A DNA stretch of 64,000 nucleotides from a virus: the IMG/VR virus record IMGVR_UViG_3300032285_001029, positions 77,856 through 141,855 of that record; one strand, written 5' to 3'. The notes under the pieces are model-generated. The model saw only the letters and a program-made list of their open reading frames with translations. It was not told where the DNA came from and searched no databases. Below are positions 664 to 17,103 of this stretch, piece by piece. Both the position numbers and the translations under genes were made by a program. Within the stretch, counting starts at the first letter, position 1; each line of letters begins with the position of its first letter.

Positions 664-1956
664 TTATTGACTTTGTGTAGTTTCTAAACGAACACCGGCT
701 GAATTACTGTCTGGACGGGGAATCTCAGCACCACTGTTACCCCATCTTACTAATTGTCCGCGTGGGTACACATTTGGATCAGCAAATATTCCTAGACTTG
801 GATTTTTACGAACTACTATGCACTTATGTGCTGTAACTTTAGTTACCCAGTATTCGTGATCGTCATCGTCCCAAGCTGTTAAACTTGCTTGACCTAGTGC
901 TGCAGGAGCGTGTGCATATAATCTTGCACTGACTACACTACCAACAGCAGCTTTTAAAATATATGTTCGTGTACCACGTTGTCTAATAACATCAGTATCT
1001 CGAACTTGGCCGTTAATATATGATTTGAATAACAAAGTATATCTTGAACTAGAGCTGCCACCGACATTAGTATCAGTAGTATTCCAATCAAACCCATCGA
1101 TCGATGCGTTACCTGTTGCAAATGCAATAGTAGTATCTTGGCGTACATAACCACGATTACGATTTGCACCTGTTCCATTTAATACATCAATGCTTAATAC
1201 TCTATATGTTGTGTTGACTGTTAAACCTGTACCTTCTGTAGAAGTTGTTACAACTGATGTAATATCTCCTGGCAATGCTGTGTAGTTACCACGATTTGTA
1301 ATGTTAAGTGTTTTAGCAGTCCACTGACCATCTAAATTAATAGTTAACCCTGCTGCTGCTCCACTGTTTGTAGTTGTTAGTATACCTGTTGGCAATACTG
1401 TATAACTACCTGCGTTAGATAATGTTAATTGTGTTACACGGCCATAAGGAGCAGTTGTACCACCTGCACCAACATTAAGACCTGTTACTGTAAAAACAGC
1501 AGCTTGACTAAACGTACCGCCTTGTACTGTGATTGTGTCGCCGATACCATAACCTTGTGCGCCAGTTCCACCAACGACTACAATGCCTACACCGCCTGGC
1601 GTTGAGTATGCACCGTCAAATGTTGTGCTGTTGTTGCCATGTACACCTGCTGTTGCAAGAGTATATGTAGCTTGTATTCCTGTTCCACCAGTAGCTGTGA
1701 TAATGCTAGACATGGTGTAACCTTTGCTGTTTACCTGTTCTTGTGGAGCTGCTGCGCTAACTTCCATGTGTACACGATAAGTTGCTGCTACCCCAGCTGG
1801 CAATTGTGGAGCTGTTATGTTTAGTGCTGGAATAGCAGTATAACCGCTACCTTTACTGTCGACATAAATGTCAGTGATTGTAATGCCGCCTTCGTTTGGT
1901 AATACACCGTTTTCGTTTCTATTACCAAAGTATAATGATTTAATTGGACGTCCCAT
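664..1956 (-). CDS. Virion structural (decoration/fibre-like) protein downstream of MCP
   Basis: ORF track starts at 2025, but ATG at 1956 (MGRPIKSLYFG) has an AGGAGA SD. G/T-rich with GSGY/GSY beta-repeats like those in the giant baseplate protein. Confidence 0.7.
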   Translation of the reverse strand: MGRPIKSLYFGNRNENGVLPNEGGITITDIYVDSKGSGYTAIPALNITAPQLPAGVAATYRVHMEVSAAAPQEQVNSKGYTMSSIITATGGTGIQATYTLATAGVHGNNSTTFDGAYSTPGGVGIVVVGGTGAQGYGIGDTITVQGGTFSQAAVFTVTGLNVGAGGTTAPYGRVTQLTLSNAGSYTVLPTGILTTTNSGAAAGLTINLDGQWTAKTLNITNRGNYTALPGDITSVVTTSTEGTGLTVNTTYRVLSIDVLNGTGANRNRGYVRQDTTIAFATGNASIDGFDWNTTDTNVGGSSSSRYTLLFKSYINGQVRDTDVIRQRGTRTYILKAAVGSVVSARLYAHAPAALGQASLTAWDDDDHEYWVTKVTAHKCIVVRKNPSLGIFADPNVYPRGQLVRWGNSGAEIPRPDSNSAGVRLETTQSQ

Positions 1957-1979
1957 TTTGTTTTTCTCCTTAAGAAATA

Positions 1980-2037
1980 ATGGCGTTCTAGGCCATACGC
2001 GGTTGGATTTCCGCATAAAACTCACACCATGTGAGTC
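1980..2037 (-). promoter_or_regulatory. Structured 5' leader with three tandem hairpins
   Basis: Minus strand: GACTCAC-atggt-GTGAGTT, TATGCGG-aaatccaa-CCGCGTA, ATGGC-ctagaac-GCCAT, lying between a late promoter and the SD. Confidence 0.6.
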
Positions 2038-10899: not shown

Positions 10900-11126
10900 G
10901 CCTAATTAAATTAAACAACGAAGAAATTAGCGAGTATTTAATTAGGCTTGAACAGTTTATATCTAGATTCAAAGAAGAACTACTTAGAGTAAGCTGGTAT
11001 ATGAGGGGTTCAGTTACTTACGATCAAATGCTATATCAGTACAGTTATGATGATCGTGCAGCAATGTATGAAGTAATCAAAGAAAATATTGAAGCTACTA
11101 AAAACTCTGGAATGCCGTTAATTTAA
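10887..11126 (+). CDS. gp51-like segment, probably translated as a -1 frameshift extension of the upstream gene
   Basis: 79-codon open -1 frame (FFRLSLIKLNNEEISEYLIRLEQFISRFKEELLRVSWYMRGSVTYDQML...SGMPLI*) starting exactly at slippery T TTT TTC. The first ATG is at codon 39. Confidence 0.7.
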   Translation, partial: FFRLSLIKLNNEEISEYLIRLEQFISRFKEELLRVSWYMRGSVTYDQMLYQYSYDDRAAMYEVIKENIEATKNSGMPLI

Positions 11127-12287
11127 TTATTTCTGAACTAGTTGTCCAGTTTGCGGATCACGAGTATAGCCTGCAGGAGCTGGTTGTGATTTTCTATAAG
11201 CAGTCAATGCATTTTGATCAATTGGCTCATACCACTTTGTCGGCGTTGGAGCAGCTTTATCATATTGTTTCATAGCAGCAGGTGTACCACCATCAGGTCC
11301 TGTAGTACTAGTTGCTGCAATATCCTGTTGTGCTGTTGGGCTAGGTTTTGCAGATTGTTGTGTACCATTAGCTGTGCCAGTAGTTGCTGCAGTTGTACTA
11401 GTTGTATCAGGAGTTTGATTTGATTGTCCAATTATTGAATCAATTATTCCGCCAGCAGCACGGATTGCTGCTGCTTCGATAGTCTGTACATAATCTGTTA
11501 CATTAGGAAAATACTGTTGTAGCCAAGTAAACAGCATAAATCTTGCGATTGTTTCAGATCCCTTGTCAGTTGCTGCCCATGCCATAAATGTAGCTTGTCC
11601 TACAGTAGCAACTTTTTGTAGAAATGCATCTAACCCAGGAAAATTTTTAGATATAATTTTCCAGCTGGCAAATGATCTTATTAGTTTATTACCTATTAAC
11701 ACACCTGCTATTCTGCTTACGCACCAAGAAGTTTCTTGTTTATACAGTGCATTATATTCATCTTGTGTGATTGTTCCGCTTTTTAGTGCTGCTTCGCCTT
11801 TGCGCAAATTAACCACACACTCGTATACCGGTTGTCCAACATCCCATAGACCCAATGCACCCCACACAACTGATCCTGCTTTGTTCATGACGTTCCATGC
11901 TGTTCCAACTGGAGCAACAATACGAGCAATCTTATCTTTAATTGCTTGTACGCCACCTTTAATTGCAGATATTTGATCCTGTCGTATTAATTTTTCTGCT
12001 TCTTTTCTAGCACTTTTAATAATATCTTTCCATTCGGGATTATTAACAGTGAAATGTCTACGAGCTTCGACTTTACCAACGGCAGCTTCTAGTTGTGCTA
12101 GTACTGCTTTACGATTTATCGAAGTACCTGCCTTACTTGCACGAACCATTTCTTGTGCAAAAAGATCTATAAGTTTTTGCTTAGTCGCAATTCCTCCTAT
12201 AGATTTAGCACCATATGCTAAAGCTTTACCAATTAGTCCTTCTTCATGAAGATGTTGGTTAGGTGTAATTATGTCAAGTATTCGCAT
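11127..12287 (-). CDS. Hypothetical late protein, possibly internal head/ejected protein
   Basis: TAAATA at 12310-12315; N-terminal LHEE (gp21-type L-x-E site); amphipathic helices; Thr/Pro/Gln-rich tail. Confidence 0.55.
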   Translation of the reverse strand: MRILDIITPNQHLHEEGLIGKALAYGAKSIGGIATKQKLIDLFAQEMVRASKAGTSINRKAVLAQLEAAVGKVEARRHFTVNNPEWKDIIKSARKEAEKLIRQDQISAIKGGVQAIKDKIARIVAPVGTAWNVMNKAGSVVWGALGLWDVGQPVYECVVNLRKGEAALKSGTITQDEYNALYKQETSWCVSRIAGVLIGNKLIRSFASWKIISKNFPGLDAFLQKVATVGQATFMAWAATDKGSETIARFMLFTWLQQYFPNVTDYVQTIEAAAIRAAGGIIDSIIGQSNQTPDTTSTTAATTGTANGTQQSAKPSPTAQQDIAATSTTGPDGGTPAAMKQYDKAAPTPTKWYEPIDQNALTAYRKSQPAPAGYTRDPQTGQLVQK

Positions 12288-12326
12288 GATGCTTTCTAGG
12301 TTAGTATGATATTTATTATTCTTTTA

Positions 12327-12411
12327 AGATGAACTACGTTCATCTGCTCTTCGCTCACGCTCGAGCATTTCTTCTTTTTAATATTATTGAACTATTATAA
12401 TGCGAAGCATT
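12327..12411. other. GNA-triloop mini-hairpins and GAGC repeats around an AT-rich tract
   Basis: AGATGAAC-tac-GTTCATCT (12327-12345), GCTC x3 + GAGC (12346-12366), AATGC-GAA-GCATT (12399-12411). Confidence 0.5.
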
Positions 12412-12420
12412 TTAAATATT

Positions 12421-12771
12421 ATCCAGATTGTTCAGTCACACTTAGCCCAGGGCGGGCTAAGAACATTATCCGAGTTGCACAATGTCACACAGCGTTATGG
12501 CATTACAGAGGCGGTCAGCCTGTACCTCGAGCCACGTCTTTCCTGACGGCGGTTTACAAACATACGCTATCATGCTTGTAAACGTAGGGTTTTCTCCCTT
12601 CATTTTGCCTTTAAATCCGTTTCAAATAACCAAACAGCAGGGCTTACAAAGCTGTCATCATCCATTTTGGGTAGTGGTTAAGCACTCTTGCGGCAGAGAT
12701 TTATGTCCGAGTGACTCGTGGTCCTCTTGTCATATGCGCACGAAATAAGCCTGCGCTAGCCAAAAACCGCT
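12421..12771 (-). ncRNA. Putative large structured ncRNA, family not recognised
   Basis: GC-richer non-coding block with at least 7 stems, a 7-bp loop-loop pairing and a long-range closing helix; starts at the GIY-YIG stop codon. Confidence 0.55.
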
Positions 12772-13215
12772 TTATTTTGCCTGTTTATCTTGAGATTTGC
12801 GTATATGTGAACCATGCACACGCACTTGAATATGCCCGTTATAATAGTCATTTGACTCTAGAACACGGCGAGAAAACTGCTCTCGTGCTTCGATATAGCT
12901 AGCTTCTGGCTTACTGGAACAGTAAAAAAGTATCTCTCTTTTAAAGTTTTCTGGTCCTAATTCTACGACATCTTTGTTTAATTCTATATTAGAACCGTAG
13001 TATTCGCGCCAATCGCTGTCTATTTTTGACTTTATCTTTTGCCTTTTTTTGTTGCCATTCTTGAATTTAACTACTTTGTAAGTAGTTTTGCTGAATTTTG
13101 CCAGCTTTTTGCCTATATACATGCGTCCTGTAGTAAGATTAGTAATAAGATATACAAATCCTACGCAATCTTCAGGTAGATTTTCTATTATTTCGTTTTG
13201 ATAATACCAGGACAT
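12772..13215 (-). CDS. Minimal GIY-YIG nuclease
   Basis: GFVYLITN...YIGKK, YYGS, FKREIL, E..EQF, YYN motifs; Lys-rich insert; no separate C-terminal DNA-binding domain. Confidence 0.85.
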   Translation of the reverse strand: MSWYYQNEIIENLPEDCVGFVYLITNLTTGRMYIGKKLAKFSKTTYKVVKFKNGNKKRQKIKSKIDSDWREYYGSNIELNKDVVELGPENFKREILFYCSSKPEASYIEAREQFSRRVLESNDYYNGHIQVRVHGSHIRKSQDKQAK

Positions 13216-13482
13216 CTACTGTTTATCATTGGATGTCCTTGCCTTTGCTTCCTTCTGAGCCTTTCGTTCTGCCTTTTGATCTTCCCAAACTTCGTCTTTC
13301 CAATTACGCCATTCTTGTAGTGCAGCCCTGCGCTGTCTTGCAACGATACGTATGTCCGCTAACAGATTGCGTGTGTTGATACATGCCCTTTTAGTGCCGG
13401 TATTTACTAGGCGCTGATTCTCTTCAAAATATTTTCTGAAGAGGCGCATTAGTTCAGCATGTAGTTCTTCGTCCGGCTGCAT
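13216..13482 (-). CDS. Small helical basic protein, Hc1 (histone H1-like) family-like
   Basis: GTKRACINTRNLLADIRIVARQRR resembles the G-K-A---R--L core of Hc1-like proteins. Confidence 0.5.
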   Translation of the reverse strand: MQPDEELHAELMRLFRKYFEENQRLVNTGTKRACINTRNLLADIRIVARQRRAALQEWRNWKDEVWEDQKAERKAQKEAKARTSNDKQ

Positions 13483-15260
13483 TAATTTGAAACCTCTACG
13501 TCATTTGCATAGCTAGTAAATCCGTTTTCTTTAATTACTTTAAGAACATTACTGACTCTGCCGACAAGTTCGTCCTTGTGGCTGATTAAGTATACATTCT
13601 TGTTACGTTCTCTAGCAAATTTCTTTAGTACTGACAGTGCGTTCTCTACTCCTGCAGCATCAAGTCCGTTATCAATTAGCTCGTCAATGAATAGCAAGTT
13701 ACAACTTTGATATAAACTTTCCCACACATCTCTAAATGCCCACGACAATCCTAAGATTAATCTATTGCGCTCACCTCGTGATAAGTTATCAAAGTCTAAG
13801 TCTTGTCCTAACTGAGTAATCTCTACAGTTAAATCGTTTTGGAATGTTACAAGATGAGGTAGACCCATTTTATCTAAGTAATGACTTAGTCTGTTATTCA
13901 GATAAGCTAAATTTTGATCAATAATCTTCTTGCGAATAAAACTGTCTTTGTTTGTTAACAGTTTTAGTAAGAACTCTTGATGATTCTTAAGTTCTGTTGC
14001 ATTGTTAACAGTGTTCCATGATATTTCCTGCATGGCAGTATTGTTTAATTCATCGATCTGTTCTTGATACGGATCAACTTCTTCTGATCGTGTGATTAAT
14101 TGTGTTTCAAGCGTTTTCAAATTGTTCTGATGTTTTAGTGCCTGCTCGACAGTATCATAATATGTGTCAGGGCGTGTGCCTAATTCACCTACTGCGGCAA
14201 TCTCATCATTGACACGAGCATAATCCGCAGTTAGTTTCTGTAGATATGTATGAGCATCGCCTAGATTTTTTGCAGAAGTAGCTCGCATTTCTTCGTGCTT
14301 GTGATCCTGGAGCTCTTGTTCGCAAGCAGGGCACTTATTTTTTTCAAGCTGATTGTCTTCAGCAGTATATTTTTTAACTGTTTTATCTGCTTGAATAATT
14401 GCACTCTCCAGTGTAGCACGTTCTTTCATCAAGCTAGTATGTTTAGTTTTGCTTTCTAAGTGAGCTTTTAGTTCAGCATGTGCTATAATCTCTGCTTCTA
14501 TGTCTACATTTTCTAATTCTACAATAGCTAGACCTATTTTTTCTAAGTCTGTTTTTTGTTGAGCATACCAAGCAGTTCGTCTTGAGTTTAGACCGTCAAT
14601 GCTTTGCTGTATTTTTTCGTTACTGCGTTTTGCTGCTTCTATGTTTGCAGTCTCTTGTGTAATAACATCTTTAGTTTGACGAATTAGCTCTTTAAGACGT
14701 TCTGCTTTGTCAGACAATTGCGTAATTCCTAGCAGTTGTTCAATGATAGTACGTTGATCCGCAGTTTTCATACTGAGGAATGGTTCAGTATATGTATTAA
14801 GTGCAACGATATGTTTAAACATATCATGACTCATACCAAGTAGCTCATCTAAATCCTTTTGTGTTTCTCTACTATCGCCTTGTGCATCATCAGTTTCGTC
14901 ACTATCTTGTGCTTGATTATTAATAAAGAATTTTAGTACATTAGGTTTGCGACCTCGTTCTATACGATAGTCTACCCCATTCTTTTCAAAACTTAACGTA
15001 ACTAACATATTCTTATTGTTAATTTTATTAATTAAGTTATCTTTTTTGATATTTGTAAGAGCATTGCCGTATAGTGCATAGCTCAAGGCATTAACAATAG
15101 TTGTTTTACCAGTACCGTTTCGACTGCCACTATCGTCGCCGCCTTGATCTAAGTTTTCACCTAGTACAAGCGTTAATTGTTGTTTGCTAAAGTCCACGGC
15201 TTGGGTCTGATTGCCTACGCTCATGAAGTTTTTTACTGTTAAATTCTTAATTCTGATCAT
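13482..15260 (-). CDS. gp46: Rad50/SbcC-like ATPase (T4 gp46)
   Basis: KNFMSVGN, NGTGKT Walker A, CPAC zinc hook, LSRGE signature, LLFIDE Walker B, ISH. Confidence 0.95.
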   Translation of the reverse strand: MIRIKNLTVKNFMSVGNQTQAVDFSKQQLTLVLGENLDQGGDDSGSRNGTGKTTIVNALSYALYGNALTNIKKDNLINKINNKNMLVTLSFEKNGVDYRIERGRKPNVLKFFINNQAQDSDETDDAQGDSRETQKDLDELLGMSHDMFKHIVALNTYTEPFLSMKTADQRTIIEQLLGITQLSDKAERLKELIRQTKDVITQETANIEAAKRSNEKIQQSIDGLNSRRTAWYAQQKTDLEKIGLAIVELENVDIEAEIIAHAELKAHLESKTKHTSLMKERATLESAIIQADKTVKKYTAEDNQLEKNKCPACEQELQDHKHEEMRATSAKNLGDAHTYLQKLTADYARVNDEIAAVGELGTRPDTYYDTVEQALKHQNNLKTLETQLITRSEEVDPYQEQIDELNNTAMQEISWNTVNNATELKNHQEFLLKLLTNKDSFIRKKIIDQNLAYLNNRLSHYLDKMGLPHLVTFQNDLTVEITQLGQDLDFDNLSRGERNRLILGLSWAFRDVWESLYQSCNLLFIDELIDNGLDAAGVENALSVLKKFARERNKNVYLISHKDELVGRVSNVLKVIKENGFTSYANDVEVSN

Positions 15261-16267
15261 AGACTATTATAAATTTCCAGCAGAGTGATTTTATTAAAAG
15301 CATCGGATTCGATAGAAGTGATTTGATTAGCTACAATTTCGTCTACGCTTTCAAATGCTTGTATTTCGAGGTTGGTATCTATTTGTGTTTCTTTGCGTTC
15401 AGCTATTAATGTAAGTTCTCTAATTGCATAATCTTGTAAAAACTTTTCTTTAATAAAACTTGCTTCTTCATAACTTACATCAATGTCCAATGCAACACGA
15501 AGATGTTGTTTAGGTTTAATGATAGATGCATTATCAATTAATTCACTTAATTTTGTTGTGCGGAATGTAGGTTGTTCCGGCCAAGTTAGATATTCTGGCT
15601 GTTTGCCCCATTCTAAAATCATCATCCCACGCTCGTCATCCCACGCATCTGCATAATTGTGAGGAAAAGCATTGCCAATATAGATCATATTGCCCTGCTG
15701 TTGACGTTTGTGGAAGTGTCCGCTGAATCCTAATTCATATTCTTTGAAGTTATCGAGTTGTATTTCACCATGATCTGGCATCTGTACCATAGCGTTCATA
15801 AAGAAGTTAGGCAGTTCAAAATGTCCAAAAATATATTTGCCGGTATGTTTTTTACCAATATGCTTCCATTCATCGCCGACTAACCAAGGACACATAGTGA
15901 CTTCGCCGATAGTCACAGGTTCGTGAACTATAGTAATGCCCGGAATGTATTTGCCAAACTCTACACTATGGATATCACGTTTATCCTTATAGTACAAATC
16001 GTGATTTCCGGGAAAGAAGAAGAACTGATCAAATGCTTGACCTAGTTTTTCTAATGCCCGCAGGCTATAATCCATAGTTGTAATGTTGAGACTGTTGCGA
16101 TTGTGATGCCAATCGCCCATAAACATTCCAGTATCGCAGCCAGCCTGTTTAGCTTCTGCAATATACCAGTCAACAAAGTCTAAACAGTCTTGATTATGTG
16201 TCTGGCTATTACTTTTCAAACCAAAGTGTATGTCTGTAAAACAAGCTACTTTTTTAAATAGACTCAT
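15257..16267 (-). CDS. gp47: Mre11/SbcD-like nuclease (T4 gp47)
   Basis: DIHFG, GDW, GNHD, GHFE, SGHFH phosphoesterase motifs. Confidence 0.95.
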   Translation of the reverse strand: MSLFKKVACFTDIHFGLKSNSQTHNQDCLDFVDWYIAEAKQAGCDTGMFMGDWHHNRNSLNITTMDYSLRALEKLGQAFDQFFFFPGNHDLYYKDKRDIHSVEFGKYIPGITIVHEPVTIGEVTMCPWLVGDEWKHIGKKHTGKYIFGHFELPNFFMNAMVQMPDHGEIQLDNFKEYELGFSGHFHKRQQQGNMIYIGNAFPHNYADAWDDERGMMILEWGKQPEYLTWPEQPTFRTTKLSELIDNASIIKPKQHLRVALDIDVSYEEASFIKEKFLQDYAIRELTLIAERKETQIDTNLEIQAFESVDEIVANQITSIESDAFNKITLLEIYNSL

Positions 16268-17103
16268 TCGCTACTCTCGTCAAATCTTTTCATAGCAGCA
16301 GCATGTTCGCCGTCGCTTATTCGTGTGTAACTAGGATTCATGCCATTAATTTCTAAAATGTCATCTCGTATATTTTGATTGCGTTTTTCAATGTTAATTA
16401 CTCGAACAAAACTATTAGTAACAGCAGCAGTGAAATAAGCAAAAGGGTTGTCTGATTTAGATTCATCGAATTGTAATCCTATTTGAGTGAGCTGTAAAAT
16501 TGCTTGCCCTTTCATTTCGTCATTGTAAGTATATCCTCTTACATTACCTCTTGTAGCATACCGCTCACATAATTTAAGCATCATACGTGCTAGATTGTTT
16601 GTAATTTGTCCTTTATCTTTATCAAAATGACCTTTACCAACAGTGCCTTTCCAATGACTTTTACCAACACACTCTAGTTCATCTTCGTCGTTAAATTTCC
16701 AATGTTGAAACGGAGGAAAGTTTACTTTATCTCTATGATCTGCTGTAGTTTTTGGATTCTTTTTGCGAGTATTGTTTAATGGTATATGATCAAATGTCAT
16801 AACTCTAAACACTAATTCTTGTTTAAGTATTTTCTTGTAGTCGACTTCGCAATCTGCTTGTTTAACCTTTTCTCCAGCAGCTTTTCTACGTGCATAATCC
16901 TGTTCACCTAGTCTTTTTGCTTTGTTGCGTTTAGCTTCTGCAATGGTTCTAATATTAATTTTTTCTATACTAGGCAAAATTATATCATATTGATGATATT
17001 CTGCTTTGGTAAAGCTGCAATATGAGCTTTTGGACTTATGTATTTCAGCTAGTAAGTCTTTATTGTTTAGATAATTTACTTTTACTGGTTGGGTTGGTGT
17101 CAT
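16264..17103 (-). CDS. gp55: Late-transcription sigma factor (T4 gp55 family)
   Basis: YLNNKDLL, RGYTYNDEM, FDESKSDNPFAYFT, SFVRVINIEK; T4-like gp55-47-46 synteny. Confidence 0.9.
   Translation of the reverse strand: MTPTQPVKVNYLNNKDLLAEIHKSKSSYCSFTKAEYHQYDIILPSIEKINIRTIAEAKRNKAKRLGEQDYARRKAAGEKVKQADCEVDYKKILKQELVFRVMTFDHIPLNNTRKKNPKTTADHRDKVNFPPFQHWKFNDEDELECVGKSHWKGTVGKGHFDKDKGQITNNLARMMLKLCERYATRGNVRGYTYNDEMKGQAILQLTQIGLQFDESKSDNPFAYFTAAVTNSFVRVINIEKRNQNIRDDILEINGMNPSYTRISDGEHAAAMKRFDESSE

What the first reader, a model, noticed from the sequence alone, without database searches (positions are those of the whole stretch)
12421..13215. Minimal GIY-YIG nuclease directly followed by a ~350-nt pseudoknotted RNA-like element: candidate nuclease-RNA system
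Seen: in a densely coding genome, 12288-12771 is non-coding and mostly GC-richer than its flanks. It begins at the stop codon of a 147-aa GIY-YIG that has only the catalytic core plus a Lys-rich insert (KFSKTTYKVVKFKNGNKKRQKIKSK). Stems are at 12441-12461 (8 bp), 12481-12504, 12508-12528, 12535-12548, 12552-12583 (12 bp with one G-U on the minus strand), 12586-12599, 12634-12655 and 12716-12743. On the minus strand, loop ATAGCGT (12564-12570) can pair with loop ACGCTGT (12489-12495): 7 bp with one G-U that is an A-C mismatch on the plus strand. AGTCAC (12434-12439) can pair long-range with GTGACT (12711-12716). Purine-rich loops (AGAAAA, AGGAAA) also favour the minus strand, co-oriented with the nuclease. 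Known: Seg/I-TevI-type GIY-YIG homing enzymes carry an extra DNA-binding domain, and compact nucleases with adjacent large RNAs exist (HEARO, OMEGA). Inference: the RNA may be a scaffold or guide forming an RNP with this nuclease, within the gp55-47-46 recombination operon. I do not recognise the RNA family.
Basis: partly seen in the sequence, partly recalled or inferred. Interest (0 to 1): 0.88.

Follow-up and report, generated by a model that had tools for sequence, protein, structure and literature searches.

The report
Twin-box phage RNA behind nuclease gene
The gene-free stretch behind a small DNA-cutting enzyme gene of this uncultured giant T4-like phage encodes a real, multiply knotted RNA of about 435 bases. 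Its first third is the catalogued but unexplained Polynucleobacter-1 motif, and the enzyme looks like a neighbour rather than a partner.

Summary
The observation largely holds. Window 12761-12327 (minus strand) is a non-coding, GC-richer, conserved structured RNA of about 435 nt. It lies 10 nt after the stop of a 147-aa GIY-YIG gene that ends the gp55-gp47-gp46 operon.

- **Known part.** Rfam places the 5' third (12761-12624) in RF01718 Polynucleobacter-1 (83 bits, cut-off 37). The 3' two-thirds are uncatalogued and are the better conserved part.
- **Structure.** On 110 distinct homologues, 91 proposed pairs are 88.5% paired, against 35-42% when slid. 76 pairs change on both sides.
The kissing loop is confirmed, because all 7 pairs covary. 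Five of the eight stems hold and one is ambiguous. Two stems and the long-range AGTCAC/GTGACT pairing fail.
- **Twin boxes.** Two identical single-stranded boxes (GGAUAAU) flank a hairpin. They changed at least 26 times in step, and I found no partner for them.
- **Nuclease-RNA reading.** It is not supported. A PD-(D/E)XK nuclease replaces GIY-YIG in 12 of 103 loci while the RNA core stays. The 5'-domain types do not follow the nuclease type. ORFs intervene in some loci. GIY-YIG homologues in sequenced phages have no detectable RNA.
- **Open point.** All 103 loci do have some small nuclease gene upstream.

This scan has found the same RNA family before on other DNA. Its function is unknown.

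The parts
16264..17103 (-). gp55-like late sigma factor, first gene of the operon (context)
   Evidence: phrog_12791, E 1e-74
15257..16267 (-). gp47 / SbcD-like nuclease subunit (context)
   Evidence: phrog_100, E 5e-63; Metallophos
13482..15260 (-). gp46 / SbcC-like ATPase subunit (context)
   Evidence: phrog_77, E 2e-104; 49% identical to Pseudomonas phage PA5oct
13216..13482 (-). 88-aa basic ORF of unknown function, conserved in part of the relatives
   Evidence: tblastn gives 37-63% identity in about half of the loci. No Pfam or PHROG hit.
12772..13215 (-). 147-aa minimal GIY-YIG nuclease (SegE-type catalytic domain) with a basic beta-hairpin insert
   Evidence: PF19835, E 1e-31. AlphaFold pLDDT 91. 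I-TevI catalytic domain Z 8.5, T4 EndoII Z 5.4, UvrC N-terminal domain Z 5.5. At least 596 viral loci encode a relative.
12327..12761 (-). Whole structured RNA, about 435 nt (extended Polynucleobacter-1, 'twin-box' RNA)
   Evidence: Conserved block in nearly all related loci. 91 pairs are 88.5% paired against 35-42% when slid, and 0 of 500 shuffles reach this.
12624..12761 (-). 5' domain, Rfam RF01718 Polynucleobacter-1. Helices P1 12756-52:12740-36, P2 12726-21:12715-09, P3 12698-95:12688-85, P4 12680-76:12631-27, P5 12670-69:12663-62, P6 12655-51:12638-34, plus a small pseudoknot 12760-59 x 12750-49
   Evidence: cmscan 83.1 bits (cut-off 37), E 2e-17, full model 1-141. Per-helix pairing is 71-99% with compensatory changes.
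12552..12599 (-). P7 hairpin (12599-96:12589-86) and long hairpin P8 (12583-72:12563-52) with the loop GAUAGCGU
   Evidence: P8 is 85-96% paired and every pair changes on both sides. P7 is 58% paired.
12489..12570 (-).
   Evidence: 93.4% paired, and all 7 pairs change on both sides. In the PD-(D/E)XK clade both strands carry other letters (CUGAU... / ...AUCAG) and still pair.
12498..12547 (-). Invariant core: PK2 12547-44 x 12517-14, P10 12534-31:12501-498, P11 12528-25:12511-08, with invariant GGUA and ACCGCC
   Evidence: PK2 is 97% paired (UA 68 / CG 42 at one pair). P10 is 94% paired with 5 pair types. P11 is 95-100% paired.
12463..12471 (-). Twin box 1 (GGAUAAUGU), predicted single-stranded
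   Evidence: The 7-mer is identical to box 2 in 134 of 141 loci. 27 and 26 changes on the tree for the two boxes, and 9 of 9 independent pairs move in step, p 0.004.
12441..12461 (-). P13 hairpin between the boxes (8 bp)
   Evidence: 99.1% paired; UA 80 / CG 13 / AU 12 at one pair
12432..12443 (-). Nearly invariant single-stranded AAGUGUGACUGA
   Evidence: Column conservation of 80-99%. No complement elsewhere in the 142-kb genome piece.
12416..12424 (-). Twin box 2 (GGAUAAUAU), predicted single-stranded
   Evidence: As for box 1
12327..12410 (-). 3' domain: P14 12410-07:12403-00, P15 12366-63:12349-46, GNRA mini-hairpin P16 12360-59:12354-53, terminal hairpin P17 12345-38:12334-27
   Evidence: P14 81%, P15 61%, P16 98%, P17 96% paired, with many compensatory changes
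12310..12317 (-). AATAAATA, 7 of 8 matches to the T4 late-promoter consensus TATAAATA, 22 nt before the next ORF
   Evidence: ATAAATA is conserved in homologues. The consensus itself is from established T4 biology, so the assignment is inferred.
11127..12287 (-). 386-aa downstream ORF, poorly conserved, probably a late gene (context)
   Evidence: A variable ORF stands in this position in relatives. No family hit.

Best explanation
Window 12761-12327 (minus strand) encodes an independently acting, trans-acting structured non-coding RNA of freshwater giant T4-like phages. It is a full-length 'twin-box' RNA whose 5' third is the Rfam motif Polynucleobacter-1.

**Shown**
- It is non-coding and conserved in well over a hundred sampled viral contigs.
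- It folds into about 17 helices and three pseudoknots, all supported by compensatory changes.
- It carries two identical unpaired boxes of 7-9 nt on either side of a conserved hairpin. The boxes change often and always together.

**Inferred**
- No conserved promoter lies in the 10-70 nt between the nuclease stop and the RNA, and a late-promoter-like box follows its last hairpin. The RNA is therefore probably made as the 3' end of the early/middle gp55-47-46-nuclease transcript, and its compact fold may then let it persist.
- The knotted body probably acts as a rigid scaffold that presents the two boxes, and the invariant AAGUGUGACUGA between them, to an external reader present in two copies or with two identical sites.
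- The GIY-YIG protein is a syntenic neighbour, the last protein gene of the recombination-nuclease operon, and not the RNA's obligate partner.
For: **Family and conservation**
- Rfam RF01718 at 83 bits.
- The conserved block 12761-12310 is best conserved outside the Rfam part.

**Structure**
- 91 pairs are 88.5% paired against 35-42% when slid. The covariation score is 0.44 against 0.06-0.10, and 0 of 500 shuffles reach it.
- An APC-corrected mutual-information scan recovers the helices and PK1/PK2 without any prior structure.

**Twin boxes**
- Identical in 134 of 141 loci.
- 27 and 26 changes on the tree for the two boxes, and 9 of 9 independent pairs move in step.
- No internal complementary column.

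**Not coding**
- No conserved ORF.

**Independence from GIY-YIG**
- PD-(D/E)XK (PF24608, E 1e-25) stands in the same slot in 12 of 103 loci with the RNA core intact.
- No GIY-YIG was found elsewhere on five such contigs.
- The type-2 5' domain occurs behind both nuclease types.
- ORFs are inserted between nuclease and RNA in L016, L017/19, L037, L095, L110 and others.
- L073 has the nuclease without the RNA.
- GIY-YIG homologues in 510 phage records come without a detectable RNA.
- The boxes differ between phages with 95% identical GIY-YIG proteins.
Against: - No transcript data could be obtained for this window, so the ends, the abundance and even the expression of the RNA here are inferred.
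- No reader of the boxes was found. There is no enrichment of the box or its complement in the flanks or in the 142-kb genome piece, and no complement to the invariant 12-mer.
- All 103 RNA cores with room upstream are preceded by a small nuclease gene. Plain synteny explains this, but so does a functional tie to 'a nuclease'.
- Most contigs are fragments, so absence of GIY-YIG elsewhere in PD-(D/E)XK-type phages is not proven.
Confidence: 0.6

Rival explanations
1. Nuclease-RNA system. The RNA is the scaffold or guide of whichever small nuclease is encoded just upstream. The twin boxes pair with two identical half-sites of a DNA or RNA target and direct cleavage.
For: - The RNA lies directly 3' of a nuclease gene, same strand, 10-70 nt away in most loci.
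- Of 103 cores, none lacks an upstream nuclease gene.
- The GIY-YIG lacks a separate DNA-binding domain and has a basic beta-hairpin.
- The boxes evolve fast and in step, as a specificity element might.
Against: - Two unrelated nuclease folds are served by the same RNA core.
- The RNA 5'-domain type does not track the nuclease type.
- Genes are inserted between the two, and L073 lacks the RNA.
- The same GIY-YIG family is common in RNA-less sequenced phages.
- The basic insert is present there too, though six residues shorter.
- The box differs at 95% protein identity.
- No target-like complement is enriched anywhere tested.
- No RNA-guided GIY-YIG or PD-(D/E)XK nuclease is known to me.
Confidence: 0.08
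2. Cis-acting end-of-operon element. The fold acts on its own transcript. It forms or protects the 3' end of the gp55-47-46-nuclease mRNA and insulates the early operon from the late gene that follows.
For: - It always lies at the boundary between the recombination operon and a late-promoter-like box plus a variable late ORF.
- A strongly covarying terminal hairpin P17 sits just before the promoter box.
- There is no own promoter or canonical terminator in the scan.
Against: - About 435 nt with three pseudoknots, invariant single-stranded motifs and co-evolving twin boxes is far more than 3'-end protection needs.
- P17 has no U-tract.
- The element stays intact when another gene is inserted upstream of it.
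Confidence: 0.15
3. Homing-endonuclease hotspot. The nuclease genes are selfish, free-standing homing endonucleases that repeatedly settle next to a highly conserved RNA gene, which supplies an invariant target sequence. The RNA has its own unrelated function.
For: - Two unrelated nuclease families occupy one slot.
- GIY-YIG is 72-81% identical even where gp46 is only 49-57% identical.
- A relative (L095) carries repeated NxMYG-type motifs and a Cys-rich tail, like Seg/I-TevI DNA-binding regions.
- PHROG neighbours are annotated as homing endonucleases.
- The best fold match is I-TevI.
Against: - No nuclease-free RNA locus was found among 103, whereas homing genes are typically sporadic.
- The window's protein has no DNA-binding domain.
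- The family looks like a core gene of T4-like cyanophages, with over 400 records.
- The PD-(D/E)XK protein matches a PHROG annotated as a Holliday-junction resolvase. This fits non-orthologous replacement of a housekeeping structure-specific nuclease.
Confidence: 0.12

Closest known systems
Polynucleobacter-1 RNA motif (Rfam RF01718; Weinberg et al. 2010, Genome Biol 11:R31, PMC2864571)
   Same: - The 5' 138 nt match the full model at 83 bits.
- The genomic setting is the same, downstream of GOS11034-family genes, which are this GIY-YIG.
- The habitat is the same, fresh water.
- The paper's supplementary alignment already shows a 'tail' with the P8 hairpin (loop UAGCGUA) and a pseudoknot.
- The function is unknown in both.
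   Different: - Rfam models only 141 nt, whereas the RNA here is about 435 nt. Its uncatalogued 3' two-thirds (PK1, PK2, invariant core, twin boxes, 3' domain) are better conserved.
- The 3' part also occurs without any RF01718-type 5' domain.
- The 2010 paper did not recognise the upstream gene as a nuclease and found no example in a purified phage.
GOLLD and ROOL, large ornate RNAs of phages and prophages (Rfam)
   Same: Large (over 400 nt), multi-domain, pseudoknotted, phage-borne non-coding RNAs of unknown biochemical role.
   Different: - No Rfam hit to either, even at E up to 10.
- The genomic setting is different.
- Nothing here shows multimer formation.
- Twin co-evolving boxes are not a described feature of those families, as far as I know.
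OMEGA / HEARO RNAs of IscB, IsrB and TnpB
   Same: A compact nuclease gene with a large structured RNA encoded next to it on the same strand.
   Different: - The nuclease is a GIY-YIG (or PD-(D/E)XK), not a RuvC type.
- There is no HEARO hit.
- There are no transposon ends and no terminal guide segment.
- RNA and nuclease are separable in evolution.
I-TevI and Seg-type GIY-YIG homing endonucleases of T4-like phages
   Same: The catalytic domain fold matches (Z 8.5 to 1ln0), and the Pfam family is SegE_GIY-YIG.
   Different: - The window's protein has no linker or DNA-binding domain.
- It is not inside an intron.
- It is not sporadic in this clade.

Membership tests
Rfam RF01718 Polynucleobacter-1 | Covariance-model score above the curated gathering score | tested here: met
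   83.1 bits against 37, E 2e-17, model positions 1-141 of 141, at 12761..12624 on the minus strand
Rfam RF01718 Polynucleobacter-1 | Consensus helices kept by compensatory changes in relatives | tested here: met
   P1 97.5%, P2 82%, P4 96.7%, P6 99% paired, with changes on both sides
Rfam RF01718 Polynucleobacter-1 | Location downstream of GOS11034-family genes (Weinberg 2010 supplement) | tested here: met
   The coding end in their alignment row (..EQFSRRVLESEEYYNGHIQVRVHGSH..) matches the C-terminus of the window's GIY-YIG
OMEGA/HEARO-type RNA-guided nuclease system | RuvC-type nuclease (IscB/IsrB/TnpB) next to the RNA | tested here: not met
   The protein is GIY-YIG by Pfam and by fold
OMEGA/HEARO-type RNA-guided nuclease system | Match to the HEARO/omega RNA models | tested here: not met
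   No such hit at E up to 10 in 11000-14500
OMEGA/HEARO-type RNA-guided nuclease system | Obligate co-occurrence of RNA and its nuclease, and a terminal hypervariable guide | tested here: not met
   PD-(D/E)XK replaces GIY-YIG in 12 of 103 loci, and GIY-YIG occurs without the RNA. The only fast-changing fixed-length parts are the internal 7-9-nt twin boxes.
Group I intron carrying a GIY-YIG homing endonuclease (I-TevI type) | Group I catalytic core (Rfam RF00028), with the ORF inside an intron that interrupts a host gene | tested here: not met
   No group I hit at E up to 10. The GIY-YIG ORF abuts the stop of the 88-aa ORF, and no split exon reading frame is present.
Free-standing Seg-type homing endonuclease | GIY-YIG catalytic domain | tested here: met
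   PF19835, E 1e-31; I-TevI Z 8.5, rmsd 2.7 over 82 residues
Free-standing Seg-type homing endonuclease | C-terminal DNA-binding region (NUMOD/HTH/zinc finger) | tested here: not met
   The protein is 147 aa, catalytic core only. Only the distant relative L095 (354 aa) has such a tail.
Free-standing Seg-type homing endonuclease | Sporadic presence among close relatives | tested here: not met
   A nuclease gene is present in 103 of 103 RNA-anchored loci with room upstream
GOLLD / ROOL large phage RNAs | Match to the Rfam models | tested here: not met
   No hit on the whole window at gathering score, nor at E up to 10 around the element
T4 gene 60-type translational bypass | Matching take-off and landing codons fed by a conserved upstream reading frame | tested here: not met
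   The boxes read NNA + UAA/UGA. But the frame upstream of box 1 is open for a median of only 7 codons, and the box spacing of 47-59 nt shows no multiple-of-3 preference.

The most novel reading that the evidence does not exclude
The RNA is the exchangeable specificity module of a two-part phage nuclease system. Its two identical boxes base-pair with two identical half-sites of a nucleic-acid target and recruit whichever small structure-blind nuclease (GIY-YIG or PD-(D/E)XK) is encoded upstream. This would be the first RNA-directed nuclease outside the RuvC/HNH/Argonaute/Cas families. A less radical variant is that the boxes are twin cleavage sites for a co-evolving endoribonuclease, which frees a roughly 50-nt effector RNA.
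Probability: 0.06. Interest if true: 0.95.

Novelty: new variant of a known kind. Interest (0 to 1): 0.6.

Why it matters
Large, multiply pseudoknotted RNAs with invariant unpaired motifs are rare. Those whose roles are known are mostly ribozymes or cores of RNA-protein machines.

Here an orphan motif catalogued in 2010 turns out to be only the variable front end of an RNA of about 435 nt. That RNA is common in uncultured giant T4-like lake phages. Its conserved core carries two boxes that mutate together, which implies an unidentified reader present twice.

The RNA gives a defined structure for in-vitro work. The report also corrects a tempting but unsupported 'RNA-guided GIY-YIG' reading.

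Tried and rejected
**Searches that found nothing or were unavailable**
- blastn of the element against 50,697 phage records gave no match.
- ARAGORN found no tRNA or tmRNA in the window.
- A scan of representative cellular genomes with a twin-box pattern gave 9 hits. None is recognised by the segment HMMs even at E 10, so they are chance hits.
- Two literature searches found no paper on this RNA other than Weinberg 2010.

**Structure ideas rejected**
- Thermodynamic stability as evidence: z = -0.5 on the minus strand and +0.1 on the plus strand.
- A single global MAFFT alignment with 3' flanks was too poor for RNAalifold. It was replaced by trimmed full-length RNAs.
- Pairing of box 1 with the flank of box 2, which RNAalifold suggested, is contradicted by invariant C12472 opposite the variable 12424.

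**Searches for a reader of the boxes**
- No complementary covarying column inside the RNA.
- No enrichment of the own box or its complement in 3-10 kb flanks, compared with other phages' boxes.
- No enrichment in the 142-kb genome piece.
- No complement of the invariant AAGUGUGACUGA beyond chance.

**Other ideas rejected**
- Mini-ORF or gene-60-like hop: the 45-aa ORF ending at box 1 and the 15-codon ORF ending at box 2 are not conserved.
- RF01718 in loci with PD-(D/E)XK or a divergent GIY-YIG: absent at gathering score.

**Inconclusive**
- A search for SegE_GIY-YIG elsewhere on five PD-(D/E)XK-type contigs found none, but the contigs are only 3-18% complete.
- Foldseek alone gave no significant PDB match for the nuclease model. 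VIA-align then ranked four GIY-YIG enzymes at the top.
Full report
**Setting.** The window is part of a 141,855-bp IMG/VR virus record that CheckV rates 38% complete. Its gp46 is 49% identical to that of the Pseudomonas jumbo phage PA5oct. On the minus strand lie gp55 (17103..16264), gp47 (16267..15257) and gp46 (15260..13482). They are followed by an 88-aa ORF (13482..13216) and a 147-aa GIY-YIG ORF (13215..12772). Then come 484 nt without a conserved ORF, and then a 386-aa ORF (12287..11127). On the other strand lies a baseplate-hub-like gene. GC is 0.43-0.47 at 12400-12800, against 0.32-0.38 beside it.

**What the element is.** Rfam cmscan places 12761..12624 (minus strand) in RF01718, Polynucleobacter-1 RNA. 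The score is 83.1 bits against a cut-off of 37, and the whole model is matched. The supplement of Weinberg et al. 2010 (PMC2864571) says the motif mostly follows genes of family GOS11034 and that its 3' half is not always detected. Their alignment has a 'tail' subfamily with a pseudoknot. The coding end preserved in one of their rows matches the C-terminus of the GIY-YIG here. The gene-RNA adjacency was therefore already on record, although the gene was not recognised as a nuclease.

**Extent and conservation.**
- The GIY-YIG protein has at least 596 relatives in IMG/VR.
- The 80 fetched loci are syntenic: gp46, sometimes the small ORF, GIY-YIG, about 450-520 nt without an ORF, a variable ORF, then the hub gene on the other strand.
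- The conserved block runs from 12761 to about 12310. It is best conserved at 12540-12410, outside the Rfam model.
- Segment HMMs find the parts A, B, C and D contiguous in nearly every locus with enough sequence.
- There is no conserved ORF. The longest ORF has a median of 36 aa, and lengths are not constrained to multiples of three.

**Structure.** I aligned 110 distinct full-length RNAs.
- A mutual-information scan without any prior structure recovered stacked antiparallel pairs and two pseudoknots.
- The resulting model has 91 pairs. Cells are 88.5% paired, against 35-42% for partners slid by 1-3 columns.
- 76 pairs change on both sides. The covariation score is 0.439 against 0.06-0.10, and 0 of 500 shuffles reach it.
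- The helices are listed under parts. In the PD-(D/E)XK clade both of its strands carry quite different letters and remain complementary.
- PK2 (12547-44 x 12517-14) shows UA 68 / CG 42 at one pair, with no exception.
The stem at 12535-12548 is compatible but competes with PK2.
- Folding energy alone is unremarkable.

**Twin boxes.** Columns 12471/12424, 12470/12423, 12467/12420, 12465/12418 and 12463/12416 covary as identical letters, not complementary ones.
- The 7-mer (GGAUAAU here; elsewhere GGAUGAA, AGAUAAU, GGAUGAU, GCAUAAU and others) is identical in both copies in 134 of 141 loci.
- On a tree built without the box columns, box 1 changes 27 times and box 2 26 times. Position 1 changes 13 times in each box, and 9 of 9 independent pairs move in step, p 0.004.
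- Fixed differences directly beside the boxes (ACUC against AUCU before them, G against A after them) argue against simple gene conversion. This is inference.
- I found no complementary partner in the RNA, in the flanks or in the 142-kb genome piece.
- The box reads as a sense codon plus UAA or UGA. No conserved frame leads into it, so a bypass or mini-ORF reading is rejected.

**Is the nuclease a partner?** I anchored a sample on the RNA core instead of the protein (120 loci).
- Of 103 loci with room upstream, 91 have a GIY-YIG gene and 12 have an unrelated 168-169-aa PD-(D/E)XK protein (PF24608, E 1e-25; phrog_244, annotated as a resolvase). None has neither.
- The PD-(D/E)XK loci keep the invariant core, PK1, PK2, the twin boxes and the 3' domain. 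Their 5' domain is different and Rfam does not recognise it.
- That alternative 5' domain also stands behind close GIY-YIG genes (72-76% identical to the window's) in L057/58, L044, L047, L031 and L016-19. RNA domain type therefore does not follow nuclease type.
- In L016, L017/19, L037, L095, L110 and others a gene of about 1 kb sits between nuclease and RNA. L073 has the nuclease and no RNA within 3 kb.
- The GIY-YIG family matches 510 deposited phage records, mostly T4-like cyanophages. There the RNA has no blastn match.
- The three regions inspected have no room for the RNA, and RF01718 is absent from those three whole genomes.
- The basic insert is present in these RNA-less homologues too, although it is six residues shorter there.
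- The boxes differ between phages whose GIY-YIG proteins are 95% identical.

**The protein.** The AlphaFold model has pLDDT 91.3 and shows the GIY-YIG core with the Lys-rich insert as a long beta-hairpin. The best structural matches are:
- I-TevI catalytic domain, Z 8.5;
- a 5hmC-specific GIY-YIG restriction enzyme, Z 7.5;
- UvrC N-terminal domain, Z 5.5;
- T4 EndoII, Z 5.4;
- Slx1, Z 3.2.

This fixes the fold, not the role. GIY-YIG is 72-81% identical even where gp46 is 49-57% identical. The slot can also be taken by a resolvase-like PD-(D/E)XK. Both facts fit either a housekeeping structure-specific nuclease of the gp46/47 module or repeated homing. I cannot decide between these.

**Signals.** No sigma-70-type promoter or intrinsic terminator is found on the minus strand within the element. 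The short, unconserved spacer after the nuclease stop argues for co-transcription with the operon. AATAAATA at 12317-12310 matches 7 of 8 positions of the T4 late-promoter consensus and is conserved in relatives. It follows the terminal hairpin P17 and precedes the next ORF by 22 nt. These are inferences, and no read data were available.

**Verdict.** The element is a real RNA of about 435 nt with three pseudoknots. Its front is a member of RF01718, and its larger, better conserved remainder is uncatalogued. It most likely acts on its own, presenting two identical boxes to an unknown reader. The nuclease-guide reading is unlikely, at about 8%.

Earlier agents of this scan reported the same 'twin-box' RNA family on other genomes. 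I reached the same features independently before looking and have adopted their name.

Noticed in passing
window 1954-2036 (minus strand); also L143:473-546: A second catalogued orphan motif, freshwater-2 RNA (RF02980), scores 70.9 bits (cut-off 49.9) in this window and 52.9 bits in a related contig.
   Followed up: no
L094:5043-5549(-), L098:6671-7180(-), L149:2089-2598(+) and 9 further loci: A 168-169-aa PD-(D/E)XK nuclease (PF24608; phrog_244, annotated 'RusA-like Holliday junction resolvase') occupies the slot between gp46 and the RNA in place of the GIY-YIG gene. This looks like non-orthologous replacement.
   Followed up: partly
L095:2869-3933(+): A distant GIY-YIG relative (about 30% identical) is fused to a roughly 220-aa tail with repeated N-x-M-Y/F-G-[RK] motifs and a Cys-rich end. 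This is the classical Seg/I-TevI-like architecture that the window's protein lacks.
   Followed up: no
window 12541 with 12458:12444: Column 12541 copies 12444 and complements 12458, which are a pair of hairpin P13 (A-U 77, G-C 13, U-A 8). This could be a base triple or an alternative pairing. The window's own sequence is an exception or is misaligned there.
   Followed up: no
window 12671 with 12660, and 12674 with 12659: In the 5' domain, 12671/12660 switch between U-C and C-U and are never a standard pair. 12674:12659 is C-G in 94 sequences and G-C in 15, so always standard. These may be tertiary contacts that the Rfam model does not hold.
   Followed up: no
window 13216-13482 (minus strand): An 88-aa highly charged ORF between gp46 and the nuclease gene is conserved (37-63% identical) in about half of the relatives and has no family assignment.
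   Followed up: no
phage records NC_028945, NC_015280 and others: RefSeq and PHROGs (phrog_447) label this GIY-YIG family 'NAD synthetase'. By Pfam and by fold it is a GIY-YIG nuclease, so the label looks like a propagated mis-annotation.
   Followed up: partly
window 12310-12317 (minus strand): AATAAATA, one mismatch from the T4 late-promoter box, is conserved in relatives directly after the RNA's last hairpin.
   Followed up: partly
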